DNA of 64,000 bases from Patescibacteria group bacterium. GTDB lineage: Bacteria; Patescibacteriota; Patescibacteriia; GWA2-46-9. A program made the position numbers and the translations under genes. The notes under the pieces are model-generated. The model was given only the letters and a program-made list of their open reading frames with translations. It made no database searches and was not told the DNA's origin. This document shows, piece by piece, positions 1 through 33,689 of the stretch. The stretch's first letter is position 1, and every line of letters starts with the position of its first letter. The stretch is from contig JBAZXG010000003.1 in NCBI GenBank assembly GCA_041660005.1, forward strand, positions 64,835-128,834, given 5' to 3'.

Positions 1-495
1 CACAAAAATATTGAGGAACTTCTGGATGCATGGGTTGCGGTAGGTGAGCACCATAAAGTTACGTTGGTGCTTGTAGGCCCTGAAGACAGTTTTGCGAAGC
101 GGCTGCAAGATCGGCTTCGGAAAATGGAGTCCTCAGTTAGTCGGCATGTAGTTTTTATGGGCGCAGTCGGCGACGAAGAACTACGCGAGCTTTACCGCAA
201 GGCTCTATTCGTTCTCTTTCCTAGTCTCTATGAGGGCTTTGGCCTCCCGGGCGTAGAGGCATCATTGTTGGGAAAAAGTATTGTTTCTTCGGCGCGATCT
301 GTTCTTCCGGAGTCGTACGGTCGGAGTGCTGTTTATGTACCTGCTGGGAATACAGTTTATTTGGCTCGTGCATTGAACGCATTACTAGCTGACGCGCGTA
401 GCACAACGGAGCGACCCCCCATAAGTACAACTTCCATTGAACAGTTTAGGGATCAGTTACTGGTCGTGTATGACCGGGCCCTTCAGAATAAATGA
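1..495 (+). CDS. Glycosyltransferase family 1 (GT-B fold), C-terminal part; 5' end outside window
   Basis: Frame 1 is open from base 1 into ORF 64..495. It carries the C-terminal GT1/GT4-type motif EGFGLPGVEA. Confidence 0.7.
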   Translation, partial: HKNIEELLDAWVAVGEHHKVTLVLVGPEDSFAKRLQDRLRKMESSVSRHVVFMGAVGDEELRELYRKALFVLFPSLYEGFGLPGVEASLLGKSIVSSARSVLPESYGRSAVYVPAGNTVYLARALNALLADARSTTERPPISTTSIEQFRDQLLVVYDRALQNK

Positions 496-3035
496 CCATG
501 CAAAAAAAATCAGAAAAAAAAAGAAGCCAGGCAACTAAACAGAAATCCGTGATGCCTTTAAAGCGGGAAATACCCATTCGAATTACCACTGGACCGCATC
601 GCGTATCAGAATTTTTAGTAACGACGAGGCCAGCATTATTTTCTGAACCAGTATACAGAAAAAACGTACCAACAAATGCGCGGTTTAATGTTCGTGGTAT
701 TTGGATTGCGGTTCAACCCTATGTCTTTCAAATTAGCACAACGACGCTTTTCGCTTTTTTAGGATGGGTTATTGTCAGAATAGCTGTTTTGGTTTTTTGG
801 CTGCCGGATACTGCTGGCGTGATGCCGCGTGTTATTGCGGTTAAAGAAAAACGACAAAGCATTTTTGCGGGCGTACTCGCGAGCGCCAGGACTTCATTTG
901 CAGCTGTTGCTACTTCTACGAGACCAGCTACGGATGTGACGCTCTCGCCAGTCAGCCCTTTGCCTAAGCAGAGGTTACCGAAGAAGAGTACGGAACCTGC
1001 TTGGTCGTTTCAATTTTTCTCAATATGGAGAGCATTGATTCCGCGCTCACTTAGTTTTGCGGCGTTTTCCTTTGCGTTGGCGTTACCGATTTGGTTTGTC
1101 GGTCAAATTTCTATAGTGAAAGCAGTAAGTACGGACGTCATTGGTTCAATGAAAGTTGGAGTACAGTCCTTTGTGGACGGAGCTTCTTCGTTTCAGCTTG
1201 GCCAGTACGACGCAGCCGGAAGTACGTTTGAAGCGTCTCTGGAAAATTTTAAGCAAGCCAAACAACAGCTGGACAAACTACCAGTGGGTCTGACCTTCGC
1301 CGCAGCAGCTCTACCTCAGGGAGAAACGCTTGCCTCTGTTCGACATGTTATTGATGCAGCGAATGATTTGGCGGCCGTTGCTTCTGAAGTAACAACCTCA
1401 CTCGCTCTTTTTGAAAGTGAACAAAATAAAGCAGTAGGTGATGATGTCGGGTCGGCTCTTACTGCGCTGAGAAGCTTGGCAGAAAAAGCCATACCGCAAC
1501 TTACCAACGCAACTCAGTCTCTGTCTCTTGTTGATGCTGAGTCCTTGCCGCAACCGTACGCAGAATTTTTTGGCAACCTTCAGGGTGTTATTTTGCCGCC
1601 ACTCAAAGAAGCGGTGCAGAGTTTGACTTTGATTCAATTTATTGAGCCGCGACTACTTGGCGTTGATCGTCCGCAGCGCTATTTGTTTGTTTTTCAAGAC
1701 GATTACGAACTACGTGCCAGTGGCGGGTTTATGGGTAGTTTTGCTCTTCTGGATGTTTCCAAAGGGAGTATTCAGAACATTGAGTTTCCTGGCGGTGGCA
1801 GCTATGACCTTGAAGGATCTCTCGCTGTGCAGGAAAAGCCGCCACACCCACTCAGCTTAGTTGCCAGTCGGTGGGAGTTTCAAGATGCAAATTGGTGGGT
1901 AGATTGGCCGACCTCAGCAAAAAAGATTGCTTGGTTTTATGACCATTCTGGCGGCAGCACGGTTGACGGCGTTATTGCAGTCGATACTCAGTTTATGAAG
2001 CGCGTTTTGTCTATTACTGGTCCTATTGATATGCCAAAGTATGGCATTATGGTCGATGAACATAATTTCATAGAGCAAATTCTGAATCAGGTTGAAGTGC
2101 ACTACGATCGCACAGAAAATAAGCCAAAGCAAATATTAGCAGATCTTTTACCAATCGTTACACAAAAACTTTCTGAAAGATTGCCACATGATGGCATCAG
2201 CGTGTTGACAGCACTACGACAATCGCTCGCAGAAAAGCACATACTTGTTTATAGTCGAGATGCAGCGACTGAGCGGGCGCTTGATGGTCTTGGCTGGGCT
2301 GGTGCTCTTGTTGAGAGAGCTCCCCAGTCTGATTCGTTAAGCGTCGTCAACACGAATATTGCCGGACAAAAAACAGACGGGGTCATAACGGATTCGGTTG
2401 TACATAACGTAACGGCCAACAGTGACGGATCATTAGAGGTCTCTCTGGCGATCACTCGTCAACATAATGGCGTGAAAGGTACGCCGTTTACGGGCGTGCG
2501 AAATGTTGATTATATGCGCATTTATGTTCCCGAGGGTAGTCAGTTAGTGAATGCCGTTGGGTTTGAAACAATTGATCCGTCGCTTTTTAAAAGTCCAGCG
2601 CCAAATACTGTTGACGACGCAGATATTCAAGCAACTACCGCGAGCGAACATTATGACATGACGACTGGCATTACTGATTACCGTGAGCTATCGAGAACCG
2701 TTTTTGCTGGTTGGCTTACCTTGGACCCAGGACAAAAGAAAACAGTGCAACTTACTTATCGTTTACCTTGGCGTTTTTCAGAAGTTAGCAATCGCGCGAG
2801 TGTTCCTTGGCTGACTTTTTTAACTTCTGAACCCTCTAATTTAGGGTATACTTTCTATTGGGAGAAACAGCCCGGTACAGTTGAAACCACACTTAGTCAT
2901 TATTTTGTGGCGCCTGGAGAGAACCTTGATCTCGTACGCTCGTCAATTCCGCCGGTGCGAAGTGACACGGGTTGGTTGTGGCAGCTCGTTCCACGAACGG
3001 ATACAGCATTTATAACTCTATTTAAAAAGCGTTAG
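492..3035 (+). CDS. DUF4012-like membrane protein (envelope locus)
   Basis: 847-aa ORF whose ATGA start overlaps the upstream stop. It has N-terminal hydrophobic segments. The core RYLFVFQDDYELRASGGFMGSFALLDV...PGGGSYDLEG matches my recollection of the DUF4012 signature. Confidence 0.65.
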   Translation: MTMQKKSEKKRSQATKQKSVMPLKREIPIRITTGPHRVSEFLVTTRPALFSEPVYRKNVPTNARFNVRGIWIAVQPYVFQISTTTLFAFLGWVIVRIAVLVFWLPDTAGVMPRVIAVKEKRQSIFAGVLASARTSFAAVATSTRPATDVTLSPVSPLPKQRLPKKSTEPAWSFQFFSIWRALIPRSLSFAAFSFALALPIWFVGQISIVKAVSTDVIGSMKVGVQSFVDGASSFQLGQYDAAGSTFEASLENFKQAKQQLDKLPVGLTFAAAALPQGETLASVRHVIDAANDLAAVASEVTTSLALFESEQNKAVGDDVGSALTALRSLAEKAIPQLTNATQSLSLVDAESLPQPYAEFFGNLQGVILPPLKEAVQSLTLIQFIEPRLLGVDRPQRYLFVFQDDYELRASGGFMGSFALLDVSKGSIQNIEFPGGGSYDLEGSLAVQEKPPHPLSLVASRWEFQDANWWVDWPTSAKKIAWFYDHSGGSTVDGVIAVDTQFMKRVLSITGPIDMPKYGIMVDEHNFIEQILNQVEVHYDRTENKPKQILADLLPIVTQKLSERLPHDGISVLTALRQSLAEKHILVYSRDAATERALDGLGWAGALVERAPQSDSLSVVNTNIAGQKTDGVITDSVVHNVTANSDGSLEVSLAITRQHNGVKGTPFTGVRNVDYMRIYVPEGSQLVNAVGFETIDPSLFKSPAPNTVDDADIQATTASEHYDMTTGITDYRELSRTVFAGWLTLDPGQKKTVQLTYRLPWRFSEVSNRASVPWLTFLTSEPSNLGYTFYWEKQPGTVETTLSHYFVAPGENLDLVRSSIPPVRSDTGWLWQLVPRTDTAFITLFKKR

Positions 3036-3037
3036 CA

Positions 3038-4855
3038 ATGGGTAAAAGAAACATTCAGAGAAATTATCAGGATTTGGAGAGAATCTATCGCTCAGAAGGT
3101 GGTGGCAAGATGGAAACGGTTTTTGAGCAGCGTACGTCACATTCCTGGAGACGCCTGACATTTTTTCTTTTTATCCTCTTGGTCGCCGCGAGCGCTGCTG
3201 CTTGGCTGGGATTTTATGCATTTAGGACTTTGCAGCAAAATAACGGGGGAGCAGTAACGTTGCAAATTATCGCTCCTACGGAAGCGTCGGTTGGTTCAGC
3301 TGTTACCTACCGTTTCCTGGTTAATAATAAAGCGTCTGATGTGGTTAATAATGTTAATCTCAGGGTCAATTATCCGAGCGGTTTCTTGTGGCACGCCTCA
3401 AGTATTACGCCCGACGGAGAAAGTAAGAATACGTGGTCACTCGCTGCCATCCAACCGGGTGAGTCCAAAGAGGTGGATGTTGACGGGACGTTACTAGGCG
3501 AGGCGGGGAGTCTCGGCACGGTCTTTGGCACATTGACCTATAAGCTAGCGAATTTTCAGTCCGAGCTGCAAACGAGCGATTCCGTTTCTACTGCTCTCAC
3601 CACTGGAAATCAAACGCTTAGCTGGGAGGGGGACGCGCAGGCGGTTCCCGGAACAGAAGTGACGTATGTTCTTCATTACGCAAACAAGAGTAACGAACCT
3701 TTGCCACCTGCGGTACTACGCATTAATAATGTTGATGGTTTTAGCGTAACAAGTACTGATCCAAAAGTTGACGCAACGAGCGACGGTGTTTCCTGGAATA
3801 TCGATGCGTTGCCCCCGGCTGCGGAAGGGAAAGTCAGTCTTATTGGAAAGTGGAATAATACAACCGTGGGTGAGCATGCGCTTACTGCAACACTTGAAGT
3901 AGCGGGAGATCAGGGGAAGACGAATGTTATCACCAGCGCAGAGTTGAAAGTAACGGCAGTTGGTGGGGAAGCCCTCCTCAGTTTGACGGTGAATGGTCAG
4001 CAGAACCAACCAGTCGCTTCTTTAGGTGATACACTTCACCTGAACTTACATTATCAAAATATATCTGATGTTTCACTCGGCAATGCTACGGTCAGTGTGT
4101 CGTTTGATTCGAGCGTCATCAATTGGCCCGAGGTCAATCTCAGCGATGGTTCTGTTGACGGTTCGTCCACTGTTTGGACGAGTAAAGACCTTCCGATATT
4201 GGCACGCATCGTTCCTGGAGGAGGCGGGGACATCAGTTGGGATATGCCTCTTAAAAATCAGGTAAGCGTAGGAACAAATTTATCACTAACGGTGACACCG
4301 ACCCTTCATTACGAAAAGCGAGACAATGACGTTAAGCCAAACGATATTGAAGGTGCACCCGTAATCATAGCCGTAAATACGGGGTTGAATCTTGATGCGA
4401 GTGCGCGTTACTTTTTGAGCGACGGCACACCGGTTGGGTCGGGGCCGCTGCCGCCCCGAGTCGGCAGTGAGACGAGTTATCAGATAACGTGGAAGTTAAG
4501 CAGTAGTGTGCATACGCTTACCTCGGTCATTGTTACGGGCAATTTACCGACGAATGTGAAGATAGGGAGCGGTAGTGCTAGTGTTGGAACGTGGCAGAAC
4601 AATAACGGACAGCCAGAGTGGCACATTACTTCACTGCCGCCAGGGTTAGAGCCCGAAGCTCATTTTACGGTTACACTTCGTCCCGTGTCAGCCGATGCAG
4701 GGAAAATTCTTATTCTGGCGGGGAAAAACGCATTGACCGCCAATGACGATGTTACAAAAGGTCAGGTTTCTATTGCGGGCAACACCGTGACTACCAATCT
4801 CGACGGAGATACGGTAGCTAGCGGCAAGGGAATTGTTGCCGCTGGTACGCCATAA
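3038..4855 (+). CDS. Membrane-anchored surface protein with DUF11/CARDB-like repeats
   Basis: 605-aa ORF with one N-terminal TM helix (LTFFLFILLVAASAAAWLGFYAF). It carries repeated beta-rich modules of the type G-x-VTY-x-n-N-x-n-V-x-V-x-x-P-x-GF. Confidence 0.5.
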   Translation: MGKRNIQRNYQDLERIYRSEGGGKMETVFEQRTSHSWRRLTFFLFILLVAASAAAWLGFYAFRTLQQNNGGAVTLQIIAPTEASVGSAVTYRFLVNNKASDVVNNVNLRVNYPSGFLWHASSITPDGESKNTWSLAAIQPGESKEVDVDGTLLGEAGSLGTVFGTLTYKLANFQSELQTSDSVSTALTTGNQTLSWEGDAQAVPGTEVTYVLHYANKSNEPLPPAVLRINNVDGFSVTSTDPKVDATSDGVSWNIDALPPAAEGKVSLIGKWNNTTVGEHALTATLEVAGDQGKTNVITSAELKVTAVGGEALLSLTVNGQQNQPVASLGDTLHLNLHYQNISDVSLGNATVSVSFDSSVINWPEVNLSDGSVDGSSTVWTSKDLPILARIVPGGGGDISWDMPLKNQVSVGTNLSLTVTPTLHYEKRDNDVKPNDIEGAPVIIAVNTGLNLDASARYFLSDGTPVGSGPLPPRVGSETSYQITWKLSSSVHTLTSVIVTGNLPTNVKIGSGSASVGTWQNNNGQPEWHITSLPPGLEPEAHFTVTLRPVSADAGKILILAGKNALTANDDVTKGQVSIAGNTVTTNLDGDTVASGKGIVAAGTP

Positions 4856-4859
4856 TACT

Positions 4860-5228
4860 ATGGTGGCATCTCGCAGCGTACCCGTTATTGCTCGCTCAGT
4901 AATCGTAGAGCTTGCTTACAGCCCTTTCTGGTGGTACACCATCGGTTTATCTTTGCAGTTCAAACGGTTAGCCAAAGCATTGCATTACGCAAACGAATCC
5001 TCTGGATTTTCCTTGTGGTTAAAGAACCTTTTTGTGCCCATGTTCGGGCAGAATGATTTTGCGGGCAGAACGATCAGTTTTTTTATGCGAGTCTTTCAGC
5101 TGTGCGTTCGCTTCGTCATATATGTTTGTTACGTGGCGTGGGCCGTTGCGTTATTTTTACTGTATATTATCGTTCCCCCTATTATTTTATGGAAGCTCGC
5201 GGAGTCAACACTGAACTTCATAGCGTAG
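4860..5228 (+). CDS. Small integral membrane protein, hypothetical
   Basis: ORF 4833..5228. The first ATG after the upstream stop (4855) is at 4860. The C-terminal half is hydrophobic, with two predicted helices. Confidence 0.4.
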   Translation: MVASRSVPVIARSVIVELAYSPFWWYTIGLSLQFKRLAKALHYANESSGFSLWLKNLFVPMFGQNDFAGRTISFFMRVFQLCVRFVIYVCYVAWAVALFLLYIIVPPIILWKLAESTLNFIA

Positions 5229-7930
5229 GAGGCATCCCAACGCAGCAGCTGATTGTTTGCGATCAGTGTTTAGGATCGGGCATTTATCGCGGAAAGAAAT
5301 GCCGTTCGTGTTTTGGTGCTGGCACAGGGATAACCCTTGGCGGTATTAAAGCGTACGTTCCTCGAGATTTGAGCACGCGGCTACTAGAGGATGACCGCGT
5401 CTATTTACTTGCCCAAAGCGCAGTGCGCTTTACTTTTTTTATTATTGCCGTTATTTTTTTGGTTTACACAGCAGTGCGCGTGGTGGTTGGGTTAGTTGAG
5501 CAGTCGTATGGTGAGGTATATTCCATCGTGAACGCCACGGCAGGAAGTTCATTATTTTGGTTTGGAGCATTGGCTGCTCTTTACGTTTATAGCAGCATGG
5601 AGAGAGACTTGGCTGGAGCCGCGAAGGTTCCTCATAAAACATATGAACAAAAAAATATTTTTTCGTTCTTTCATCGGCAACCTAGAGCAATTAATATTTA
5701 CTCAGTATTAAGTGCTGACGCCAAGTTGCAGCTACTTCGCGCTACCCGTTTAGCCAGACGAAGAAAGGAGCATTTTTATTCTGAGCATCTTTTTCTTGCG
5801 TTGACTGTTGTTGGCAGTGTCCGCGAAATGTTTTCGCGCCTCGGCGTTGATGTCATTTCTGTTCGGGAAACGGTTGGTAGGGTACTTCGTGAGCAGGCCC
5901 ATGCAAAAACGACAACGTACGATGAGCTGGTGAAGATTTTACTTTTTTCCTATCGCGAAGCGTATATAGACCGCGGAACTAATATAGATATACCTTGTCT
6001 TTTTCTGGTAACAGCAATTGAGAGTGAACTTGTTCGCGAAGTGCTTTACGATTATGGCATCGACGATCAGAAATTGCGAAACGTCGTCCTCTGGCAACAA
6101 AACGAAAGGCTTTTGCGAAGCAGGTATCGTTATGTACGTTCTCGTAGTCGTATGCGTCCTAAAGGAAAACTTGATCGCGCCATGACGGCCCTGGCAACGC
6201 CGATGCTTGATCACTTTTCTGAAGATCTTACCGCATTAGCGCAGCGGGGTTATTTTCTCCCTGCGGTACGGCGGCAAGATGAAATTGATGCTGCTCTCCG
6301 TATTTTTGAAGGCGGTGGCGCACCCATACTGGTTGGTGAGGCGGGTGTCGGTAAGCGCAGCATACTTGAGGATATTGCTGATCGGATGGTGACCGGAGAG
6401 GTACCTGCTGTTTTGCAGGATAAACGGCTTGTTAGTTTATTGCTACCGCGAGTTGTCAGCGGAGTTACGCCCGCAGAGGCCGCCGAGCGCGTGCAGCGTC
6501 TTTTGTATGAGGCTGCACGAGCGAGGAACATTGTCCTCGCTATTAATGATGTGCATGGAGTTCGTGGTATTACGAGCGGTGGTGAAGGCAGTGTAGACTT
6601 AGCCGAGGTTTTAGCCGCAAATTTACGAACCCGGCGCGTGCCGTACTTAGCTACCAGTAAGCCCGACGAGTACCGTAAGTATCTTGAAGGTACTTCGCTT
6701 GCGGGCGTTTTTGAAACGGTACTGGTGCAAGAACCAACGATCGACGATACGATAAAAATAGTTCAGTCCCGTTTGACGATCACTGAGTTTAAACAGCATG
6801 TTTATTTTTCGTATGATGCTATTCAAAGACTTGTGAATCTGGTCAGCAAGTTTATGCCCGAGCGCCGTTTACCTAAGAAGGCGATTGAACTTCTCGATGA
6901 ACTTGCCCTTTTTGTTCGTCAGAAGAAAGGAGAATACAGCGTTATTTTGGCGGGTGACGTAGAGATGTTTTTGAGTAGTAAATTGAACATGCCGATTAAG
7001 CGCGTTGACAATAAAGAATCGTCGCTGCTTCTTTCCTTTGAAGACAGAGTACATGAACGGCTTGTCGACCAAGAGGAAGCCGTGAGCGCCGTTGCCAACG
7101 CACTCAGGCGTGCACGAGCTGAAGTTCGTGACGTGAAGAGGCCGGTCGTCAATTTACTTTTTCTTGGACCAACGGGCGTCGGTAAAACGGAGCTTGCTAA
7201 AACGGTTGCCGCTCTATACTTTGGCGACGAAGGAAAAATGGTTCGTCTTGATATGTCAGAGTTTCAAGACGCGGGTAGTGTAACGAAACTCATAGGCGGA
7301 GAAAGAAGCGGGGAACCGGGTATATTAACGCAGGCAGTCCGCAATAATCCCTTTTCCTTAGTGCTGCTTGATGAAGTTGAAAAAGCGAGTCCGGGAGTGC
7401 TCAATATATTTCTCCAAGTGATGGATGACGGACGGTTAACATCTGGCGCCGGTGAAACGATAGATTTTACGAACGTCATTCTGATTGCAACATCTAACGC
7501 TGGTGCGGCATATATTCAAGATGCAGTTCGTAATAGTGTAGCGTTTTCTGTGATTGAAAAAAATTTACGCCAGCAAGAACTCGGTAAGTTTTTTCAGCCG
7601 GAATTCATTAACCGATTTGACGGTGTCATTATGTTTAAACCGTTAACGCTTGAACACGTTTTGCAGATTACTCGTTTGCTTCTGGTGAAAATTGCCAAGA
7701 GGCTTTCTTCACAAGGAATTTATTTCGAACCCAGCGAAGAGGCGGTTGTAGAGTTAGCGCAAAAGGGCTACGACCCTGAGTTCGGTGCTCGTCCGTTACG
7801 CCGTGTTTTGCAGGACACTGTTGATTCTGAGATTGCTCGCTATCTACTTGACGGAAGGGTTAAGCGCCGCGATACTATTGTTCTTGAAGCGGGCGGAGTA
7901 ATACGTGTCAAAAAGGCAAAAAGCTTATGA
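5189..7930 (+). CDS. Clp/Hsp100-family double-AAA+ ATPase with N-terminal DnaJ-type zinc finger and two TM helices
   Basis: ORF 5102..7930; the start is uncertain and the ATG at 5189 is used here. The N-terminus has CDQCLGSG and CRSCFGAG motifs, two hydrophobic helices and a Clp_N-like repeat. NBD1 reads GEAGVGKRS / INDVH. NBD2 reads GPTGVGKTELAK / LLDEVEKA, followed by GARPLRRV near the C-terminus. Confidence 0.8.
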   Translation: MEARGVNTELHSVGGIPTQQLIVCDQCLGSGIYRGKKCRSCFGAGTGITLGGIKAYVPRDLSTRLLEDDRVYLLAQSAVRFTFFIIAVIFLVYTAVRVVVGLVEQSYGEVYSIVNATAGSSLFWFGALAALYVYSSMERDLAGAAKVPHKTYEQKNIFSFFHRQPRAINIYSVLSADAKLQLLRATRLARRRKEHFYSEHLFLALTVVGSVREMFSRLGVDVISVRETVGRVLREQAHAKTTTYDELVKILLFSYREAYIDRGTNIDIPCLFLVTAIESELVREVLYDYGIDDQKLRNVVLWQQNERLLRSRYRYVRSRSRMRPKGKLDRAMTALATPMLDHFSEDLTALAQRGYFLPAVRRQDEIDAALRIFEGGGAPILVGEAGVGKRSILEDIADRMVTGEVPAVLQDKRLVSLLLPRVVSGVTPAEAAERVQRLLYEAARARNIVLAINDVHGVRGITSGGEGSVDLAEVLAANLRTRRVPYLATSKPDEYRKYLEGTSLAGVFETVLVQEPTIDDTIKIVQSRLTITEFKQHVYFSYDAIQRLVNLVSKFMPERRLPKKAIELLDELALFVRQKKGEYSVILAGDVEMFLSSKLNMPIKRVDNKESSLLLSFEDRVHERLVDQEEAVSAVANALRRARAEVRDVKRPVVNLLFLGPTGVGKTELAKTVAALYFGDEGKMVRLDMSEFQDAGSVTKLIGGERSGEPGILTQAVRNNPFSLVLLDEVEKASPGVLNIFLQVMDDGRLTSGAGETIDFTNVILIATSNAGAAYIQDAVRNSVAFSVIEKNLRQQELGKFFQPEFINRFDGVIMFKPLTLEHVLQITRLLLVKIAKRLSSQGIYFEPSEEAVVELAQKGYDPEFGARPLRRVLQDTVDSEIARYLLDGRVKRRDTIVLEAGGVIRVKKAKSL

Positions 7931-9018
7931 TTTATGCGGTTGTTTTCATTTTTGCGGCAGTATTAACAACGGCGGTAACGCCGTTTGTTATGCGTTTCGC
8001 GCGGCGGTTTCATGTCGTAGACGATCCAAGTGTTGAAGGTGACCGGCGGATTCACGTGACTCCAGTTCCTCTTCTCGGCGGAGTTGGTATTTGGCTCGTG
8101 CTGGTTATTTGTATTGGGTATTTATCTTTTTTTAGACCGGAACTTATTTTTTACTATATTAAGCCTGTTCAGCTCGTTGGGTTTTTGGTTGGTGCAAGCA
8201 TTCTCATGGTTGGCGGCTATCTTGACGATCGTTACAAGCTTAAAACGGTGTGGAAAATTTTATTTCCTTGTGCGGCCGCGCTCTTAGCGATTTTGAGCGG
8301 CATCGGTGTTAATTTTATTACTAATCCTTTTGGCGGCGTGTGGAGGATTGATAGCATTGTGTGGTCAGTTCTTCAATATGGAAATTTTAATTACGTTCTG
8401 AGTATCGGAACGGTTTTTTTTACGCTGGTGTGGTTGATGGCCGCAATGTTTACAACAAAAGTCCTCGATGGTTTGGACGGCTTAGTTACTGGCATTGCCG
8501 CTATTGGCGCTTTAATCATTGTGGCGCTTTGCTTAAGGCCGCCGGTACTGCAGAGTGACACTGCAATTTTTGCCACAATGATTGCCGGTGCGTTTGTGGG
8601 TTTTTTGCCGTTTAATTGGTCCCCGGCAAAAATTTTTTTGGGTGAAGGGGGTAGTTTATTGGCGGGCTACACTCTCGGCATTCTCGCCGTTGTGGCCGGA
8701 GGAAAAATTGCAACCGCGGGAATTATTTTAGCGATACCGCTATTCGATGCCGTCTGGGTCGTTTTGCGCCGTGTCTTTCTAGACCGTCGTTCTCCCGTTT
8801 CTCCTGATCGTTCGCACTTGCATTTTGCGCTAATTGATCTTGGTTTAAGTGTTCGTCAGGTTGTTTCGTTCTTTTATATGATAACTCTGGCGTCTGGCCT
8901 CTTAGCACTCTTTTTACCCTCTCTGCAGAAGCTTTACGCGGTGTTCATTCTCGGTATGTTATTTTTTGTCGGTGCCGTCTATCTTTTGTTTCGAGATTTG
9001 AAAACTTCACGAGGGTAA
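7927..9018 (+). CDS. MraY/WecA-family polyprenyl-phosphate HexNAc-1-phosphate transferase
   Basis: 363-aa polytopic membrane ORF. Motifs present are DDPSVEGDRRIH, LDDRYKL, LDGLDGL and FLGEGGS. Confidence 0.8.
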   Translation: MIYAVVFIFAAVLTTAVTPFVMRFARRFHVVDDPSVEGDRRIHVTPVPLLGGVGIWLVLVICIGYLSFFRPELIFYYIKPVQLVGFLVGASILMVGGYLDDRYKLKTVWKILFPCAAALLAILSGIGVNFITNPFGGVWRIDSIVWSVLQYGNFNYVLSIGTVFFTLVWLMAAMFTTKVLDGLDGLVTGIAAIGALIIVALCLRPPVLQSDTAIFATMIAGAFVGFLPFNWSPAKIFLGEGGSLLAGYTLGILAVVAGGKIATAGIILAIPLFDAVWVVLRRVFLDRRSPVSPDRSHLHFALIDLGLSVRQVVSFFYMITLASGLLALFLPSLQKLYAVFILGMLFFVGAVYLLFRDLKTSRG

Positions 9019-9021: not shown

Positions 9022-10506
9022 ATGACTAATCGCCAGCAGTATCGACTATTAGAAATGATCCCAGGCACACTGGTCTGGTTGACCTTTGCTTTGGCTATTA
9101 TTCTTTCTTTAACAAAACCACTGTGGGCTATTAGTTTAGTTATCGTGTACGATTTATATTGGCTGTTCCGTGTTAGCTATTTTGTATTTTATTTGATCCA
9201 CGCTTGGCGCCGTTACCGGCGGGAGATTAAACGAGACTGGACTCAAGAGTTACAGGAACGCTTTCCAGCAGTCAAGGAGTACTTTCATGTTATTTTTTTG
9301 CCGACCTATAAAGAACCATTTTCGGTTGTTGAGGGCACAATTGAGCGCTTAACAAAGGTCAGCTACGACCCGAAAAAATTTATTATTGTCTTAGCTGGCG
9401 AGTCAAGGGATGAAGCAAACTTTTTGCGTTATGCTAGTGACGTCATTACTCGCTATGGAGATTCATTCAAGAAAATTATTGTTACAGTGCATCCGTCGGA
9501 CTTGCCCGATGAAGTCCCTGGAAAAGGTTCAAACTTGCACTGGGCAGGTCAAAAGACCAAAGAGTACATTGACGAAGTGGGAATAGCGTATGATCGCCTC
9601 ATTGTGTCGGCCTTCGATATTGACACTATCGTGCATCCGCAGTATTTCTCCTGTCTTTCCTACACCTACCTCAGCTATCCCGATCCGCAGCATGCCAGTT
9701 TTCAACCGGCGGTTCTTTATAACAATAATCTTTGGGAGTCACCGGCGCTTGTTCGTATTGCCGCATTGGGTACAACATTTTGGCTCATGACTGAACTTGC
9801 GCGTCCGGAACGTCTCTTTACATTTTCATCACATAGCATGAGCTGGCAGGCGCTCGTAGACGTTGGTTTTTGGGACAAAAGAATTGTTACAGAAGATTCT
9901 AGAATTTTTTTGCAATGTTTCTTGCGCTATGAGGGTAACTATACCGTTGTTCCCATTTACGTGCCGGTTTCCATGGACATGGTTTCAGCAGGGAGTTATA
10001 GCGCGAGCTTGCTTGAGCTTTACCGTCAGCAGCGGCGGTGGGCCTGGGGCGTAGAGCATTTGCCATTCATGCTGTGGAATTTTCGTAAACATCCGCAAAT
10101 TCCTTGGCGCAAAAAATTGCATTATCTTTGGAATCTTGGAGAGGGGATGTATACCTGGGCAACAGCGCCAATACTGATAACTGCCCTCGGACAGTTGCCG
10201 CTCTTCTTGTCGCGCGGCGTAGTCAATGAGACGGTTTTTGCGCAAAACGCCCCAGCGGTGCTGGCGCTCTTAATGCAGCTTGCTATGGTTGGTATTTTTG
10301 TCAGCGGCATATTGGGCATGTTCCTTTTGCCGCCACCGCCGTCCGACGCAAAAGTTCATCACTATATCTTAATGCTCTTACAGTGGGCGCTGCTACCATT
10401 CACTTTGGTATTGTTTGGTTCTATTCCGGCAGTGGACGCTCAAACAAGATTAATGATTGGACGTCCGCTTGGTTTCAATGTAACTAAAAAAGTAAGATCT
10501 TCATGA
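9022..10506 (+). CDS. Membrane-embedded processive GT2-type glycosyltransferase (cellulose/chitin-synthase-like)
   Basis: 494-aa ORF with TM helices at both ends. It carries D-containing motifs (FDIDT, VTEDSRIF) and QQRRWAWG, a Q-x-x-R-W motif. Confidence 0.6.
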   Translation: MTNRQQYRLLEMIPGTLVWLTFALAIILSLTKPLWAISLVIVYDLYWLFRVSYFVFYLIHAWRRYRREIKRDWTQELQERFPAVKEYFHVIFLPTYKEPFSVVEGTIERLTKVSYDPKKFIIVLAGESRDEANFLRYASDVITRYGDSFKKIIVTVHPSDLPDEVPGKGSNLHWAGQKTKEYIDEVGIAYDRLIVSAFDIDTIVHPQYFSCLSYTYLSYPDPQHASFQPAVLYNNNLWESPALVRIAALGTTFWLMTELARPERLFTFSSHSMSWQALVDVGFWDKRIVTEDSRIFLQCFLRYEGNYTVVPIYVPVSMDMVSAGSYSASLLELYRQQRRWAWGVEHLPFMLWNFRKHPQIPWRKKLHYLWNLGEGMYTWATAPILITALGQLPLFLSRGVVNETVFAQNAPAVLALLMQLAMVGIFVSGILGMFLLPPPPSDAKVHHYILMLLQWALLPFTLVLFGSIPAVDAQTRLMIGRPLGFNVTKKVRSS

Positions 10507-11492
10507 CGGTAACTGTAGCAATTGTCACGAGAAATGGTGCAGCTTATTTGCCAAAGTTGCTGCAAAGTCTTGATGAACAAACTTTTCATGATTTCGAAAC
10601 TTCTTTCTTGGATAACGCCTCAACTGACGCATCGGTAGAAATAGTGAAGGAGTGGTTAAATAATCATCAAGGATTTCTGACAGAGGAGAGGGAGAATACT
10701 GGTTTTGCCAGCGCTTACAATAAGTTAATTCAAGATGTTACGACACCGTACATATTGGTATTAAATCAGGATGTCGTTCTTGATAAGGAATATCTTTCAA
10801 GACTCGTATCACAAGCGGTTATTGATAAGCAGGTAGGGGTATTCTCCGGTATACTTTTGCGGTTTAACATGACGAGTACTCGGCCCATTTTTACGCAGGT
10901 CATTGACGCCTTCGGTTTAAAGTTGTTTAGAACACATCGCGCCGTTGAATGGTTGCGCGGTCAAGACGTAACTGTCGCACCGAAGATCTCAATGCCTGTT
11001 TTTGGGGTGCCCGCTACTGCTGCGTTGTACAGAATGGATGCGTTAAAGAGTGTAGCAATTCAGCGATCCCATAAAACGTTATATTTTGATGATTTGTTTT
11101 TTGCTTATAAAGAAGACGTTGATATTGCCTATCGTTTGCAGTTGAAAGGGTGGGGTAGTGTAGTGGTGCCTCAGGCGGTGGCTTATCATTACCGGACGGT
11201 GAGAGGCGAGGTAGACTCAGGTTCGCTCTTTAACAGTGTTACGAAAAGCGCTAAGGTGCGGCAGGAACGCTCTGAGTTTAACAAGTACCAGTCTTACCGT
11301 AATCACTTGTTTTTTCTGTTTGGTACAGTAAAAGTGTCATTCTTTTCCCTATCTTTTTGGCTTACGCTCATATACGAAGTTGGGAAATGCGCCTATCTTA
11401 TATTTACATCATCGTCGCATTTACGCGCCTGGAAAGAGGTTTACCAAGTAAGGCGTGAACTTCGAGAAAAAAGACTTCAGGTGCAAGGATAA
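10503..11492 (+). CDS. Glycosyltransferase family 2
   Basis: The N-terminus VAIVTRNGAAYLPKLLQSLDEQTF...DNASTD is typical GT2. The start overlaps the upstream stop. Confidence 0.75.
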   Translation: MTVTVAIVTRNGAAYLPKLLQSLDEQTFHDFETSFLDNASTDASVEIVKEWLNNHQGFLTEERENTGFASAYNKLIQDVTTPYILVLNQDVVLDKEYLSRLVSQAVIDKQVGVFSGILLRFNMTSTRPIFTQVIDAFGLKLFRTHRAVEWLRGQDVTVAPKISMPVFGVPATAALYRMDALKSVAIQRSHKTLYFDDLFFAYKEDVDIAYRLQLKGWGSVVVPQAVAYHYRTVRGEVDSGSLFNSVTKSAKVRQERSEFNKYQSYRNHLFFLFGTVKVSFFSLSFWLTLIYEVGKCAYLIFTSSSHLRAWKEVYQVRRELREKRLQVQG

Positions 11493-11515
11493 AATAGTTT
11501 AATATTGAGAGTAAT

Positions 11516-12334
11516 ATGGTGGATACAATAGCTACAAGTTTATCAATTGTCATCGTGAACTATAAGACGCGCGGTCTACTGCGGCAGTTACTTTTAAGTA
11601 TTCGCAAGTTTCCACCGTCGGTACCCTATGAAGTGATTGTGGTGGACAATCATTCAATGGACGGAAGCATAGAAATGCTCCAGAGTGACTTTCCTGAAAT
11701 CGAGACTTTAGCGCTTAAGAGTAACTTAGGGTATAGCAAAGGCACGAACAAGGGTGTCGAGAGAGCGAAGTCGTCGTTTGTTCTTTTGGTAAACACGGAT
11801 ATCGTTTTTGATGGCAAAATTATCGATGGGTTAGTGCATTATTTTACACGTCACGAAGAAGTGGGCGCTGTCTCACCGCGGTTGCATAACGCTGATGGTA
11901 CACTGCAACATTCTGCGTTTCGATTTTATCATTTTATGACGCCGCTTTACCGCCGTAGTTTTCTTGCCAATACCAAAAAAGGTAAAGCCGAAATTAATAG
12001 ATTTCTTATGCTGGATTGGGATCATTCCTCGACGCGGCCGGTAGACTGGCTCATGTCGAGCTGCCTACTCATCCGTAAAAAAGCGTTCGACGAAATTCGT
12101 GGCTTTGACGAGAGATTTTTTGTTTACCTATCCGACACTGATTTTTGTCGTCGTCTGTGGTTAAAGAATTGGCAGGTGCATTATGTGGCTGACTTAGTCT
12201 TGGTTCATTATCATCGTCGAGAGTCAGCCGAGCGATTTCAGGTTAGTCTCATTCATGCGAAGGATTTTGCCGCATATTTTTTGAAATGGTCAGGAAAACC
12301 TTTGCCGCAGTATAAAATGGATCGATTGTCATAA
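11516..12334 (+). CDS. Glycosyltransferase family 2
   Basis: SIVIVNYKTRGLLRQLL...VVDNHSMDGS...NLGYSKGTN is a typical GT2 (rhamnosyltransferase-like) pattern. Confidence 0.75.
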   Translation: MVDTIATSLSIVIVNYKTRGLLRQLLLSIRKFPPSVPYEVIVVDNHSMDGSIEMLQSDFPEIETLALKSNLGYSKGTNKGVERAKSSFVLLVNTDIVFDGKIIDGLVHYFTRHEEVGAVSPRLHNADGTLQHSAFRFYHFMTPLYRRSFLANTKKGKAEINRFLMLDWDHSSTRPVDWLMSSCLLIRKKAFDEIRGFDERFFVYLSDTDFCRRLWLKNWQVHYVADLVLVHYHRRESAERFQVSLIHAKDFAAYFLKWSGKPLPQYKMDRLS

Positions 12335-12378
12335 CCCTTGCCAGTAGGGCTAGACCTTGGGTATACTGTAGTACCTTT

Positions 12379-13386
12379 ATGATTTTCAAAAAGATAGCTA
12401 TTGACCTTGGTACAACGAATACTTTAGTTCATTTACCAAAGCGGGGCATTGTCATCAACGAACCTTCGGTCGTGGCTATTTCTATTGTGGACAAAAAAAT
12501 TCTGGCCGTTGGCAACGAGGCAAAAGAAATGCTTGGCCGAACACCAGACACCATTACGGCGTTGCGGCCACTCAAAGAGGGAGTTATTGCCGACTATCGA
12601 ACAACTGAAGCCATGCTTCGCTATTTTATCAATAAGGCGCTTGGTGGTGTGCGTTTCTTTCGACCGGAGGTTATGGTGGCTGTGCCGGCGGGTATCACCG
12701 CGACCGAACGTAGAGCAGTTATTGATGCTTGTATGGCTGCAGGTGCCAAAGCTGCATTTATCATTAAGGAGCCCATCGCAGCCGCCATTGGTGCGAATAT
12801 TCCAATTGGTTCCGCTTCGGGTCATATGATTATTGATATTGGTGGTGGCACTTCTGAGATGGCAGTCATTTCACTTGGTGGCATTGTTGCGAGCACGTCG
12901 GTGCGTATTGGTGGTACAAAATTCGATGCCGCCATTTCCGAGTACATTCGTAAAAAATATAACTTAGCAATAGGGGAACGTACCGCTGAAGATATTAAAG
13001 TCGAAATTGGCTCAGCTCTGTATCTTGAAGATAAACTGCACATGGATGTGCGCGGTCGCGACATGGTGACTGGTTTACCGCAGACGGTGACCGTTACGTC
13101 AGACGACATTACGGAAGCTATTCAGGCAGAGTTGGAGGGTATCATTGAAGCAGCAAAATCAGTGTTACAAAACACACCGCCAGAGTTGTCAGCTGACGTC
13201 ATTGATAAAGGTATGGTGCTTTCTGGTGGAAGCTCGCTTCTGCGTAATATCGATCAACTACTAAGTCGGGCAACTGGTGTGCCCGCCTATGTAGCGGACG
13301 ACGCCTTGCTTTGTGTCGCTCGGGGTACGGGTATTGCTCTTGAAAATCTTGATGCCTACAAACGAAGTATTTTGGCGACTCATTAA
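12379..13386 (+). CDS. mreB: Rod shape-determining protein MreB
   Basis: IAIDLGTTNT...VINEPSVVA...DIGGGTSE...GIVLSGGSSLL are actin-like ATPase motifs. The 335-aa length is full. Confidence 0.92.
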   Translation: MIFKKIAIDLGTTNTLVHLPKRGIVINEPSVVAISIVDKKILAVGNEAKEMLGRTPDTITALRPLKEGVIADYRTTEAMLRYFINKALGGVRFFRPEVMVAVPAGITATERRAVIDACMAAGAKAAFIIKEPIAAAIGANIPIGSASGHMIIDIGGGTSEMAVISLGGIVASTSVRIGGTKFDAAISEYIRKKYNLAIGERTAEDIKVEIGSALYLEDKLHMDVRGRDMVTGLPQTVTVTSDDITEAIQAELEGIIEAAKSVLQNTPPELSADVIDKGMVLSGGSSLLRNIDQLLSRATGVPAYVADDALLCVARGTGIALENLDAYKRSILATH

Positions 13387-17414: not shown

Positions 17415-17477
17415 CGATATCACGGACTAGCTAGGCTTTTGTATTAAGGCCTGGATTTATTTACTGTGATTTATGCT

Positions 17478-19085: not shown

Positions 19086-19096
19086 CTAAGTAATAT

Positions 19097-19309
19097 ATGG
19101 CTACAACATCATTCAGTATCACTGGCATGCACTGTGAGTCATGCAAAGGTCTCATCGAAGACGTGGTAATGGACGTGCCGGGCGTTATGAGTTGCAGTGT
19201 CAATCAGGAGACGAATTCTGGTACAATAGAGCATAGTGAATCGTTTAATTTTGGTGACCTCGTGAAAGAGATTGAAGCACTGGGTCCTTACCGAATAGCA
19301 AAAATATGA
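19097..19309 (+). CDS. copZ: Copper chaperone CopZ-like HMA protein
   Basis: 70 aa with [14 protein letters not shown] (GMxCxxC). It is adjacent to and overlaps copA. Confidence 0.8.
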
Positions 19310-24550: not shown

Positions 24551-24576
24551 CGACAATTTTGTAGCTTCGTTTGTTC

Positions 24577-28302: not shown

Positions 28303-28320
28303 TTGAGAATTGAGGTCATT

Positions 28321-30515: not shown

Positions 30516-30594
30516 GTTCATTTATTATCTTAAGGTAGGTTTCGCATTCCGAAGAGTATTGGATTAATTGTGCGTGTTTTAATGAAATTGTTAT

Positions 30595-31140: not shown

Positions 31141-31152
31141 TGTTTAAAGACA

Positions 31153-31629: not shown

Positions 31630-31662
31630 TAAGGTGTTTAGAAATTATAATTAGTGAATAAT

Positions 31663-32535: not shown

Positions 32536-32590
32536 AGTTCCATTTTATCTGCAAACATACTAACTTGTAATAGATAATTTACCAATAAAT

Positions 32591-33538: not shown

Positions 33539-33689
33539 GATCATACTCGAGGCGCTTTCTTTTGCCGTAACAAAAGAGTCAGCAATAACATTGTAAAGTA
33601 ACGAGTCAAAAGGTTAGTGCTCGAAAACGGCAGCAAAAATTCCTCCCTCCACGGTTGGAACTTTCCCCCTCGCGAGATACAATTTAAAC

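What the first reader, a model, noticed from the sequence alone, without database searches (positions are those of the whole stretch)
5189..7930. Membrane-anchored Clp/Hsp100 ATPase with DnaJ-type zinc finger and a degenerate first AAA+ module
Seen in sequence: ahead of a ClpA/B-like two-ring ATPase the ORF encodes two CxxCxGxG motifs (CDQCLGSG and CRSCFGAG), the signature of the DnaJ cysteine-rich zinc finger. Two hydrophobic helices and a Clp_N-like repeat follow. In NBD1 the Walker A is GEAGVGKRS, with Arg where Thr/Ser normally follows the Lys. The Walker B region is INDVH, with no catalytic Glu after the Asp. NBD2 is canonical (GPTGVGKT and LLDEVEKA). I see no long ClpB M-domain and no IG(F/L) ClpP-docking loop. 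Inference: this is a membrane-tethered unfoldase or disaggregase driven by one active ring, with a built-in DnaJ-like substrate-binding finger. I cannot tell from memory how widespread this is in CPR genomes.
Basis: partly seen in the sequence, partly recalled or inferred. Interest (0 to 1): 0.5.

Follow-up and report, generated by a model that had tools for sequence, protein, structure and literature searches.

The report
Membrane-anchored one-motor Clp ATPase family
This gene encodes a membrane-tethered relative of the Clp/Hsp100 protein-unfolding machines in which the first ATPase ring is dead and the usual substrate-gripping loops are missing; it is always encoded next to a small unknown membrane protein in a few hundred Patescibacteria species, so it is probably a previously undescribed kind of membrane-associated ATP-driven machine, not an ordinary chaperone.

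Summary
ORF 5189-7930 (913 aa) has two CxxCxGxG motifs, a hydrophobic hairpin, a Clp_N-like domain, a degenerate NBD1 and a canonical NBD2. It has no M-domain and no ClpP-docking loop.

New findings:
- The protein belongs to a discrete Patescibacteria-restricted family: 273 species genomes by one exact motif, and about 255 clusters at 50% identity.
- In all 77 orthologs compared, NBD1 lacks the Walker-B Asp-Glu pair, the pore-loop Tyr and the Arg fingers.
- The NBD2 catalytic residues are invariant across the 43-sequence family alignment.
- The NBD2 GYVG pore loop is deleted in the window protein, and an aromatic G[YFW]xG is absent in 68/77 orthologs.
- A 122-aa membrane protein with no known relatives (4860-5228) lies directly upstream in 77/81 loci.
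- A WecA-like glycosyltransferase follows in 43/66 loci, and the mraZ-rsmH-ftsL genes often lie upstream.

Verdict: this is a real, conserved and apparently undescribed architectural variant of Clp/Hsp100. "One active ring, membrane-tethered" is supported. "Unfoldase/disaggregase with a DnaJ-like substrate finger" is not. The missing pore-loop aromatics argue for a non-threading, Torsin-like remodeller working with its partner protein. Function remains inferred.

The parts
4860..5228 (+). SMALL: 122-aa membrane protein of unknown family, the conserved partner gene. It overlaps the CLP start by 40 nt.
   Evidence: It lies directly upstream of CLP in 77/81 orthologous loci. The family has 574 clusters, all 112-140 aa, all 'hypothetical' and without Pfam domains. 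There is no Pfam, NCBIfam or PDB match. AlphaFold2 (pLDDT 92.4) gives a helical hairpin, 2-48 and 67-121, with an invariant tip PMFGQxDWxGR. Lys and Arg are concentrated in residues 30-85.
5189..7930 (+). CLP: 913-aa membrane-anchored Clp/Hsp100-derived ATPase. This is the finding.
   Evidence: AlphaFold2 gives pLDDT 82.8. Foldseek top hits are ClpC, ClpB and ClpA.
5258..5323 (+). Two CxxCxGxG motifs (CDQCLGSG and CRSCFGAG), a putative single-zinc ribbon within the beta region at residues 21-56.
   Evidence: Pfam DnaJ_CXXCXGXG is sub-threshold only.
5426..5497 (+). Hydrophobic helix 1 (TM1, about residues 80-103).
   Evidence: Kyte-Doolittle peak 2.63. AlphaFold2 helix 63-104. Family mean 2.23.
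5540..5596 (+). Hydrophobic helix 2 (TM2, about residues 118-136). It is weaker and rich in aromatic residues.
   Evidence: H17 is 1.36 in the window and 1.67 as a family mean. The positive-inside pattern supports a hairpin. AlphaFold2 helix 117-143.
5693..6058 (+). Clp_N-like helical N-domain (residues 169-290).
   Evidence: Pfam Clp_N at 191-233, 23.5 bits. PF02861 is precomputed in most family members. AlphaFold2 helices span 170-288.
6059..6244 (+). Family-specific basic linker helix with the signature motif (D/N)(R/K)AMTA(L/V/I)ATP. LDRAMTALATP is at nt 6170-6202.
   Evidence: The pattern retrieved 273 species genomes and 255 representatives.
6245..6988 (+). NBD1 (D1), a pseudo-ATPase module. 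It contains the P-loop GEAGVGKRS (6335-6361), the pore-loop-1 remnant GVTPAEAAERV (6458-6493), the Walker-B site VLAINDVH (6533-6556) and the Arg-finger site LAGVFE (6698-6715).
   Evidence: Register from the alignment to ClpC. Family tables are: 0/77 have Asp-Glu, 0/77 have the pore-loop Tyr and 0/77 have ERRF.
7031..7633 (+). NBD2 (D2) large domain, catalytically complete. It contains Walker A GPTGVGKT (7166-7189), the shortened pore loop LIGGERSGEPG (7289-7321), Walker B LLDEVEKA (7364-7387), sensor-1 ATSNAG (7487-7504) and the Arg finger PEFINRFD (7598-7621).
7634..7903 (+). ClpB_D2-small domain with sensor-2 GARPLRR (7784-7804).
   Evidence: Pfam 77.4 bits. Invariant G866, A867, R868 and R872.
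7927..9018 (+). GT4: a WecA/MraY-superfamily polyprenyl-phosphate sugar-1-phosphate transferase. Its start overlaps the CLP stop (ATGA).
   Evidence: Pfam Glycos_transf_4. NCBIfam gives WecA 90 bits and MraY 54 bits, both below their cutoffs. It lies downstream of CLP in 43/66 loci.

Best explanation
Shown. The ORF encodes a member of a discrete, Patescibacteria-restricted family of Clp/Hsp100-derived double-AAA+ proteins. From N to C it has a cytoplasmic two-CxxC zinc-ribbon module, a two-helix membrane hairpin (N-in/C-in), a Clp_N-like domain, a family-specific basic linker, a degenerate first AAA+ module (D1), a catalytically complete second module (D2) and the D2-small domain. It has no M-domain and no ClpP-docking loop. 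It is encoded as a unit with a roughly 120-aa membrane protein of unknown family (SMALL). AlphaFold2 predicts SMALL as a long helical hairpin whose invariant tip faces the cytoplasm.

Inferred mechanism. The protein forms a membrane-tethered ring in which D1 is a structural ring. D1 may still bind nucleotide, but it cannot hydrolyse it. D2 is the only motor. The window protein and most of its family have lost the aromatic pore loops of both rings. I therefore think it does not thread polypeptides like ClpB, ClpA or ClpC. It more likely uses D2 ATP cycles to switch or remodel a membrane-embedded assembly, in a Torsin-like mode. The zinc ribbon and Clp_N domain would be the docking sites, and SMALL the obligate partner, either a regulator, an adaptor or the remodelled client.

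Probable field of action. The recurrent neighbours are a WecA-like transferase, mraZ-rsmH-ftsL, DUF11/DUF4012 surface proteins and MreB. They point, weakly, to cell-envelope or division biogenesis.
For: Architecture..

A discrete family. Homologs at 37-67% identity cover 78-98% of the query (most 96-98%). Scores then drop sharply from 597 to 412 bits and coverage to 62%, where ordinary ClpB/ClpC begin. The family-specific motif finds 273 species genomes. It also finds 255 representatives among 1.84 billion, and the full-length ones are 850-960 aa with the motif at a constant position.

Dead D1 in all 77 orthologs. None has the Walker-B Asp-Glu pair, none has KYRGEFE and none has ERRF. The P-loop Lys is even replaced by Arg, Val, Ile or Ser in some clades.

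Live D2. K666, T667, D728, E729, N770, R809 and R868 are invariant in the 43 aligned family members, and Walker-B DE-x-EK is also present in all 77 orthologs. D2 is the most conserved domain, with column identity 0.74 against 0.57 for D1.

Pore loops. GYVG is deleted in the window protein, and an aromatic is kept in only 9/77 orthologs. The role of aromatic pore loops in Clp/Hsp100, and their absence in the non-threading Torsins, is summarised in PMC7175109.

No M-domain and no ClpP loop..

Partner. SMALL is upstream in 77/81 loci with overlapping or abutting genes. Its AlphaFold2 hairpin has pLDDT 92.4 and a Lys/Arg-rich middle.

Context..
Against: There is no experimental datum for any family member.

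Oligomeric state, zinc binding, membrane insertion and the SMALL-CLP interaction are all inferred. AlphaFold2 was run on monomers only.

Nine of 77 orthologs keep a G[YF]xG loop in D2. The ancestral protein was therefore probably a threading motor, and a non-canonical grip in the trimmed loop cannot be excluded.

Unlike Torsins, D2 keeps its own Arg finger, so the Torsin analogy is only partial.

The envelope or division context is not universal. GT4 follows in 43/66 loci and the dcw head is present in 25/82. Other loci have tRNA synthetase, TGT, M16 peptidase or AI-2E genes next door.

TM2 is only moderately hydrophobic in the window protein.
Confidence: 0.5

Rival explanations
1. The protein is a membrane-tethered threading unfoldase or extractase, analogous to FtsH without its protease or to Msp1. 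It pulls membrane or aggregated proteins through its pore using the D2 motor, and the zinc finger captures substrates.
For: D2 has a complete catalytic set. The protein is tethered to the membrane. Nine of 77 orthologs keep a G[YF]xG pore loop and a canonical Lys-Thr P-loop in D1, so the ancestor probably threaded. Clp_N and zinc modules serve as substrate or adaptor sites in ClpA, ClpC, ClpX and ClpE (established knowledge).
Against: In the window protein and 68/77 orthologs the D2 loop is shortened by 4-6 residues and has no aromatic or bulky hydrophobic residue. The D1 loop has no Tyr in any member. In ClpB and Hsp104, loss of the D2 pore Tyr abolishes threading (established knowledge; see PMC7175109 and its references).
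Confidence: 0.28
2. It is an ATPase partner of ClpP, a ClpA/ClpC/ClpE-like protease component that happens to be membrane-anchored.
For: The best PDB sequence hits are ClpC (394 bits). ClpA aligns in a single stretch, and ClpA also lacks an M-domain. ClpE and ClpX carry N-terminal zinc modules.
Against: There is no conserved [LIV]-G-[FL] loop, and the region has ClpB length. The NCBIfam ClpA score is 426 against a cutoff of 993. The pore loops are absent. No clpP gene was seen in the window or in the 80 loci.
Confidence: 0.03
3. It is a ClpB-type, DnaK-coupled protein disaggregase.
For: The highest NCBIfam score is to ClpB (470 bits). The D2-small domain matches, and the ClpP-loop region has ClpB length.
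Against: The M-domain is entirely absent, 66 residues against 186-189. The score is far below the ClpB cutoff of 1232. D1 is dead, the pore loops are missing and the protein is membrane-anchored.
Confidence: 0.03
4. It is a decaying Clp paralog, or the N-terminal module is an annotation artefact.
For: Many canonical motifs are lost. There is no Shine-Dalgarno sequence before ATG 5189, and the gene overlaps its upstream neighbour by 40 nt.
Against: The ORF is intact, and orthologs occur in 273 species with a constant length. The D2 catalytic residues are invariant. The N-terminal module, the hairpin and the synteny are all conserved. The same overlapping ATG is present in the closest relative.
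Confidence: 0.02
5. It is a component of an anti-phage defence system, pairing an AAA+ protein with a small membrane effector.
For: PADLOC gives D2-only hits to DolB (94 bits) and PDC-M37B. The pairing with a small TM protein resembles some abortive-infection pairs.
Against: The hits cover only the generic Clp D2 region, and SMALL has no PADLOC hit. The module sits in a conserved core-genome neighbourhood (mraZ-rsmH-ftsL ... rplU, recR, dnaB) across hundreds of species, not in variable islands.
Confidence: 0.03

Closest known systems
ClpA / ClpC / ClpB (class I Clp/Hsp100 AAA+ unfoldases)
   Same: It shares the Clp_N domain, the two tandem AAA+ modules with AAA_lid_9, AAA_2 and D2-small, and a complete D2 catalytic set. 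Identity in the Foldseek alignments to ClpC, ClpB and ClpA is roughly 24-38%. Like ClpA it has no M-domain. Like ClpB it has no ClpP loop.
   Different: It has an N-terminal zinc-ribbon module and a transmembrane hairpin. D1 lacks Walker-B Asp-Glu, the pore Tyr and the Arg fingers. The D2 GYVG loop is deleted. It falls below every NCBIfam equivalog cutoff. It has an obligate small membrane partner gene.
Torsin ATPases with LAP1/LULL1 (eukaryotic ER and nuclear envelope)
   Same: Both are Clp/Hsp100-D2-related AAA+ proteins that lack aromatic pore loops. Both are membrane-associated and depend on a membrane-spanning partner (PMC7175109). This is an analogy of mode of action.
   Different: Torsins have a single AAA+ module, lack an Arg finger (supplied by the cofactor) and sit in the ER lumen. 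Here there are two modules, the D2 Arg finger R809 is invariant, the topology is cytoplasmic, and the partner is unrelated.
ClpE and ClpX N-terminal zinc-binding domains
   Same: All have a four-Cys zinc module at the extreme N-terminus of a Clp ATPase. In ClpX it is used for adaptor and substrate docking (established knowledge; ClpE is among the PDB hits).
   Different: Here the two CxxC pairs are 10 residues apart and carry the Gly pattern of DnaJ knuckles. ClpX has a spacing of about 18-19 residues (my recollection, not tested). Here the module is followed by a TM hairpin. No sequence similarity to these domains was detected.
DnaJ cysteine-rich domain (PF00684) and plastid DnaJ-like zinc-finger membrane proteins (LQY1, OR, BSD2 type)
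   Same: It has the CxxCxGxG signature. The spacing of the two repeats resembles DnaJ repeats 3-4. It is a membrane-anchored context, as in LQY1 and OR (my knowledge).
   Different: It has only two repeats, so one zinc centre. Pfam gives 15.4 bits against a cutoff of 32.7. There is no J-domain. Only 35/77 orthologs keep the strict pattern and 20/77 lack the module.
PEX1/PEX6, NSF and FtsH (AAA+ machines with one inactive ring or a membrane anchor)
   Same: They follow the same logic of one structural, non-hydrolysing ring plus one motor ring (PEX6 D1, NSF D2). Membrane attachment is by a small membrane partner (PEX15/PEX26) or by an N-terminal two-TM hairpin (FtsH).
   Different: They belong to different AAA+ clades, and all keep aromatic pore loops in the active ring. 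FtsH also carries a protease domain.

Membership tests
Clp/Hsp100 class I (two-ring) AAA+ superfamily | Clp_N domain followed by two AAA+ modules with AAA_lid_9, AAA_2 and ClpB_D2-small | tested here: met
   Pfam hits above their cutoffs. One-stretch alignment to ClpA residues 5-725. Foldseek to ClpC, ClpB and ClpA with E down to 1e-55.
Clp/Hsp100 class I (two-ring) AAA+ superfamily | Both modules carry functional Walker A (GxxGxGK[TS]) and Walker B (hhhhDE) motifs | tested here: not met
   D1 has GEAGVGKRS and AINDVH. None of 77 orthologs has Asp-Glu. D2 meets this feature.
Clp/Hsp100 class I (two-ring) AAA+ superfamily | Aromatic pore loops (D1 KYRGEFE and D2 GYVG) | tested here: not met
   Both are absent in the window protein. 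The D1 Tyr is absent in 77/77 orthologs, and a D2 aromatic is kept in only 9/77.
ClpB/Hsp104 disaggregase | Coiled-coil M-domain of about 120 aa inserted in the D1 lid | tested here: not met
   There are 66 residues between the anchors, against 186-189 in three canonical ClpB. ClpC residues 405-459 have no counterpart.
ClpB/Hsp104 disaggregase | Score at or above the NCBIfam equivalog cutoff (TIGR03346) | tested here: not met
   470 bits against a cutoff of 1232.
ClpA/ClpC/ClpE (ClpP-coupled) | [LIV]-G-[FL] ClpP-docking loop in D2 | tested here: not met
   The region has ClpB length and no conserved tripeptide. The window's VAF is not conserved in the family.
ClpA/ClpC/ClpE (ClpP-coupled) | Score at or above the NCBIfam ClpA cutoff (TIGR02639) | tested here: not met
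   426 bits against a cutoff of 993.
DnaJ cysteine-rich zinc-finger domain (PF00684) | Four CxxCxGxG repeats forming two zinc centres, and a Pfam gathering score | tested here: not met
   Two repeats only. 15.4 bits against a cutoff of 32.7, E=0.022.
DnaJ cysteine-rich zinc-finger domain (PF00684) | CxxCxGxG knuckle signature | tested here: met
   CDQCLGSG and CRSCFGAG, which are non-random. The strict pattern is kept in 35/77 orthologs and a four-Cys motif in 57/77.
DnaJ cysteine-rich zinc-finger domain (PF00684) | Zinc binding and client binding | not testable with these tools
   This needs metal analysis and binding assays.
Torsin-like non-threading AAA+ | No aromatic pore loop | tested here: met
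   The Torsin property is taken from PMC7175109.
Torsin-like non-threading AAA+ | No intrinsic Arg finger, with catalysis completed by a membrane cofactor | tested here: not met
   R809 in PEFINRFD is invariant in 43/43 sequences.
Membrane-anchored protein (bitopic hairpin, N-in/C-in) | Two TM helices with a positive-inside charge distribution | tested here: inconclusive
   TM1 is strong and TM2 moderate. Lys+Arg counts are 4.3, 0.65 and 4.9. AlphaFold2 predicts a helical hairpin. No dedicated TM predictor or experiment was available.
SMALL-CLP two-gene module | Conserved adjacency on the same strand across the family | tested here: met
   77/81 loci. Gene calls in L001 and L003 place SMALL 2-6 nt upstream of CLP.
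SMALL-CLP two-gene module | Physical interaction of the two proteins | not testable with these tools
   No multimer prediction or experiment was available.

The most novel reading that the evidence does not exclude
A bacterial counterpart of the Torsin principle. It is an Hsp100-derived, pore-loop-less, membrane-anchored AAA+ ring with a pseudo-ATPase scaffold ring. Together with an obligate small membrane partner of a wholly unknown family, it acts as an ATP-driven organiser of the divisome or the envelope-glycan machinery in a large branch of Patescibacteria. It may substitute for division or envelope factors these reduced genomes lack.
Probability: 0.2. Interest if true: 0.8.

Novelty: new variant of a known kind. 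Interest (0 to 1): 0.6.

Why it matters
Clp/Hsp100 machines are textbook soluble threading motors. A conserved lineage that is membrane-anchored would be a natural experiment in how an unfoldase scaffold is repurposed. This lineage has a permanently dead first ring. It has discarded the substrate-gripping loops while preserving every catalytic residue of the second ring.

It also defines a two-gene module (SMALL plus CLP) that marks a large group of Patescibacteria. Cell-envelope and division biology in these organisms is almost entirely unknown, and many conserved genes have no assigned function.

Public annotations currently call these proteins 'ClpA/ClpC/ClpB' or 'AAA family ATPase'. That probably overstates what is known and may mislead metabolic or proteostasis reconstructions of these genomes.

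Tried and rejected
1. Alternative downstream start that would remove the zinc and TM region. There is no in-frame ATG, GTG or TTG between 5189 and 5369. The AGGAGG at 5227-5232 is not followed by a usable start. The N-terminal module is conserved.
2. GT4 as MraY. NCBIfam scores are higher for WecA (90-144 bits) than for MraY (50-68 bits), and both are below their cutoffs. I call it WecA-like only.
3. A mur/dcw cluster elsewhere in the window (44-58 kb). These are housekeeping genes.
4. MurE/MurF/MraY downstream of CLP in loci without GT4. They are a class II tRNA synthetase, an M16 peptidase and an AI-2E transporter.
5. Identity of SMALL. No Pfam, NCBIfam, PDB-sequence or Foldseek-PDB relative was found. 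There were only sub-threshold DUF4873 hits in 12/76 members. The afdb50 library was unavailable.
6. Defence-system membership. Only generic D2 hits appeared in PADLOC.
7. Literature. Four searches found no description of a membrane-anchored or zinc-finger Hsp100 in Patescibacteria. The library is incomplete, so prior description elsewhere cannot be excluded.
8. The window's 'VAF' as a ClpP loop. It aligns to the ClpC VGF motif but is not conserved in the family, and the loop insertion is missing.

Full report
OBSERVATION

The longest ORF covering the finding runs from GTG 5102 to the stop at 7930. The ATG at 5189 gives a 913-aa product. That product is identical to a deposited protein named only 'AAA family ATPase [Patescibacteria group bacterium]' or 'ATP-dependent Clp protease ATP-binding subunit'.

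Pfam finds Clp_N (191-233, just above its cutoff), AAA_16 (362-420), AAA_lid_9 (518-580), AAA_2 (651-811, 162 bits) and ClpB_D2-small (819-898). DnaJ_CXXCXGXG reaches only 15.4 bits against a cutoff of 32.7. NCBIfam scores for ClpB (470), ClpA (426), ClpK, ClpG and ClpV are all far below the equivalog cutoffs.

The two motifs CDQCLGSG (residues 24-31) and CRSCFGAG (38-45) contain four of the protein's five cysteines. Composition predicts 1.3e-4 such motifs, and 2 of 20,000 shuffles produced even one.

REGISTER OF THE ATPase MOTIFS

The register comes from the HMMER alignment to B. subtilis ClpC.

In NBD1:
- The P-loop is GEAGVGKRS against GEPGVGKTA.
- The Walker-B site is AINDVH against FIDELH, so Asp becomes Asn and the catalytic Glu becomes Asp.
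- The pore loop KYRGEFE is replaced by a shorter GVT-PAEAAE.
- The Arg-finger pair ERRF is AGVF.

In NBD2, Walker A, Walker B, sensor-1 (TSN), the Arg finger (NRFD) and sensor-2 (GARPLRR) are canonical. The pore loop GYVGY is deleted, giving LIGGERS----GEPGILT.

ClpC residues 405-459, its M-domain, have no counterpart, whereas ClpA aligns in a single stretch. Against three canonical ClpB the segment between the D1 lid and D2 is 66 residues instead of 186-189. The ClpP-loop region has ClpB length.

START CODON AND N-TERMINAL MODULE

There is no in-frame start between 5189 and 5369. The closest ortholog, a Candidatus Uhrbacteria genome, has the same ATG embedded in the same codons of the upstream gene. 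The zinc motif, both hydrophobic helices and the N-domain are conserved in homologs at 37-67% identity.

AlphaFold2 with the 43-sequence alignment gives pLDDT 82.8. It predicts short strands at 21-56, helices 63-104 and 117-143, a helical N-domain at 170-288 and a long linker helix at 293-321.

TM1 is strongly hydrophobic and TM2 only moderately so (1.36 in the window, 1.67 family mean). Across 77 orthologs, Lys+Arg average 4.3 in the 20 residues before TM1, 0.65 in the loop and 4.9 after TM2. That fits an N-in/C-in hairpin with both the zinc module and the ATPase in the cytoplasm.

A DISCRETE FAMILY

About 43 clusters at 90% identity cover 78-98% of the query (most 96-98%) at lengths of 768-933 aa, most 870-930. 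Scores then drop from 597 to 412 bits and coverage to 62%, where ordinary ClpB/ClpC begin.

The linker carries a family-specific motif, (D/N)(R/K)AMTA(L/V/I)ATP. Scanning one genome per GTDB species with that exact pattern gave 273 confirmed genomes. A profile of the 70-residue linker found 255 representatives (E ≤ 1e-3) among 1.84 billion. The full-length ones are 850-960 aa with the motif at residues 245-310.

Named records are Uhrbacteria, Magasanikbacteria, Komeilibacteria, Falkowbacteria, Buchananbacteria, Kuenenbacteria and Parcubacteria/Patescibacteria. Thirty-two records are titled 'uncultured Gammaproteobacteria'. They share the same synteny, and one is a complete chromosome of only 931 kb, so I take those titles to be placeholders.

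FAMILY-WIDE MOTIF CENSUS

The census covers the window protein plus 76 complete orthologs, with three canonical ClpB as reference.
- D1 Walker-B Asp-Glu: 0/77.
- D1 pore-loop Tyr: 0/77.
- D1 ERRF Arg fingers: 0/77.
- D1 P-loop: Lys followed by Thr or Ser in 21 orthologs. In the rest, Lys is followed by Arg, Lys, Asp, Met, Gln, Glu or Asn, or is itself replaced by Arg (12) or by Val, Ile or Ser (5).
- D2 Walker B DE-x-EK: 77/77.
- D2 pore loop with an aromatic G[YFW]xG: 9/77, all with a canonical Lys-Thr or Lys-Ser in the D1 P-loop except one (Lys-Arg). The rest are shortened by 4-6 residues with no aromatic.
- Zinc motif: 57/77. The strict DnaJ-like pattern is in 35 and a 10-residue spacer in 45.

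In the 43-sequence alignment K666, T667, D728, E729, N770, R809 and R868 are invariant. D2 is the most conserved domain, with column identity 0.74 against 0.57 for D1, 0.41 for Clp_N, and 0.31-0.35 for the TM and zinc regions.

NBD1 is even more degenerate than described.

NEIGHBOURHOOD

The ORF upstream (4860-5228, 122 aa; 'SMALL') overlaps the CLP start by 40 nt. It has no Pfam or NCBIfam match. Orthologs of it lie directly upstream of CLP in 77 of 81 loci.

Its family comprises 574 clusters, all 112-140 aa, all unnamed. It has no PDB sequence hit or Foldseek hit with E below 1. AlphaFold2 (pLDDT 92.4) predicts two long helices, 2-48 and 67-121. They are joined by the invariant loop PMFGQxDWxGR. 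The C-terminal 80-112 is strongly hydrophobic, the N-terminal 1-28 mildly so, and Lys and Arg cluster in 30-85. The conserved tip is therefore predicted to be cytoplasmic.

Downstream, a Glycos_transf_4 gene overlaps the CLP stop (ATGA). It scores better against WecA than MraY but below both cutoffs. It follows CLP in 43/66 loci.

The commonest wider order is mraZ-rsmH-ftsL-like-SMALL-CLP-GT4-DUF192-rplU, with recR and dnaB nearby. Another set, including the window, has DUF4012-DUF11-SMALL-CLP-GT4 followed by three GT2 genes and mreB. Loci without GT4 have housekeeping neighbours. Only the SMALL-CLP link is universal, and the envelope or division flavour is suggestive, not proven.

INTERPRETATION

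Shown: the protein is a conserved, membrane-anchored, Clp/Hsp100-derived protein with a pseudo-ATPase D1 and a catalytically complete D2. It has no M-domain, no ClpP loop and, in this lineage, no aromatic pore loop. It is encoded with an obligate small membrane partner.

Inferred: it forms a ring at the cytoplasmic face of the membrane, with D1 as scaffold and D2 as motor.

Aromatic pore loops are what let Clp/Hsp100 proteins grip and thread substrates. Their absence in Torsins is the basis for doubting a threading role there (PMC7175109). I therefore favour a non-threading, switch-like or remodelling action on a membrane assembly that includes SMALL. The zinc ribbon and Clp_N would be the docking modules.

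It probably describes the ancestor. For the window protein it needs an unknown substitute for the pore loop.

ClpP coupling, DnaK-coupled disaggregation, pseudogene status and a defence role are each contradicted by specific tests.

COMPARISON AND NOVELTY

By fold and sequence the protein is a Clp/Hsp100 class I relative. It fails the defining features of ClpB (M-domain), of ClpA, ClpC and ClpE (ClpP loop), and of functional two-ring Hsp100s in general (D1 motifs and pore loops).

The zinc module carries the DnaJ knuckle signature but is not a DnaJ cysteine-rich domain by Pfam, and it has only one potential metal centre. N-terminal zinc modules in ClpX and ClpE are the nearer functional precedent.

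The functional analogies are Torsin with LAP1/LULL1 (no pore loops, membrane partner), PEX1/PEX6 and NSF (one structural ring), and FtsH (two-TM anchor). Four literature searches found no description of this architecture.

I rate it a new variant of a known kind, of moderate-to-high interest. It is robustly real and conserved, its motif pattern is surprising, and its function is unknown.

Noticed in passing
window 29790-42000: GC content falls to 0.35-0.40, against 0.44-0.49 elsewhere. ORFs here hit T5orf172/MUG113, Schlafen AlbA_2 and the AbiEii toxin, and many have no Pfam match. This is probably an acquired defence or mobile island.
   Followed up: partly
window 5227-5232: A perfect AGGAGG overlaps the SMALL stop codon (TAG 5226-5228), inside CLP codons 13-15. 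No canonical in-frame start follows within 5-13 nt. ATG 5189 itself has no Shine-Dalgarno sequence.
   Followed up: partly
window 492-4855: Two large predicted surface or envelope proteins, DUF4012 (847 aa) and DUF11 (605 aa), precede the module. The same pair recurs upstream of SMALL-CLP in several orthologous loci.
   Followed up: partly
window 9022-13386: Three family-2 glycosyltransferase genes are followed by mreB, directly downstream of the WecA-like GT4. Together they look like an envelope-glycan gene block.
   Followed up: no
window 17466-21489: A heavy-metal pair. One protein combines HMA, DsbD_2 and a cupredoxin-like domain, and it is followed by a P-type ATPase with an HMA domain.
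   Followed up: no
window 23987-25446 and 27583-29235: A LemA plus TPM-domain gene pair and an FtsE/FtsX pair. An M23 peptidase lies at 62440-63660 on the minus strand.
   Followed up: no
loci L006, L007, L015 and others (32 of the 80 loci, L005-L084): These records are titled 'uncultured Gammaproteobacteria' (binchicken MAGs). They carry the Patescibacteria-type module and synteny, and one is a complete 931-kb chromosome. The titles look like placeholder or mislabelled taxonomy.
   Followed up: partly
P0259 (1231 aa): An outlier in length that carries the family linker motif at residues 269-338. It could be a fusion or extended variant of the family.
   Followed up: no
L008, L018, L024, L040, L043: A queuine tRNA-ribosyltransferase (TGT) gene recurs shortly upstream of SMALL in these lineages. 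An SLT transglycosylase (L018) and a D-Ala-D-Ala ligase (L015) also occur there.
   Followed up: no
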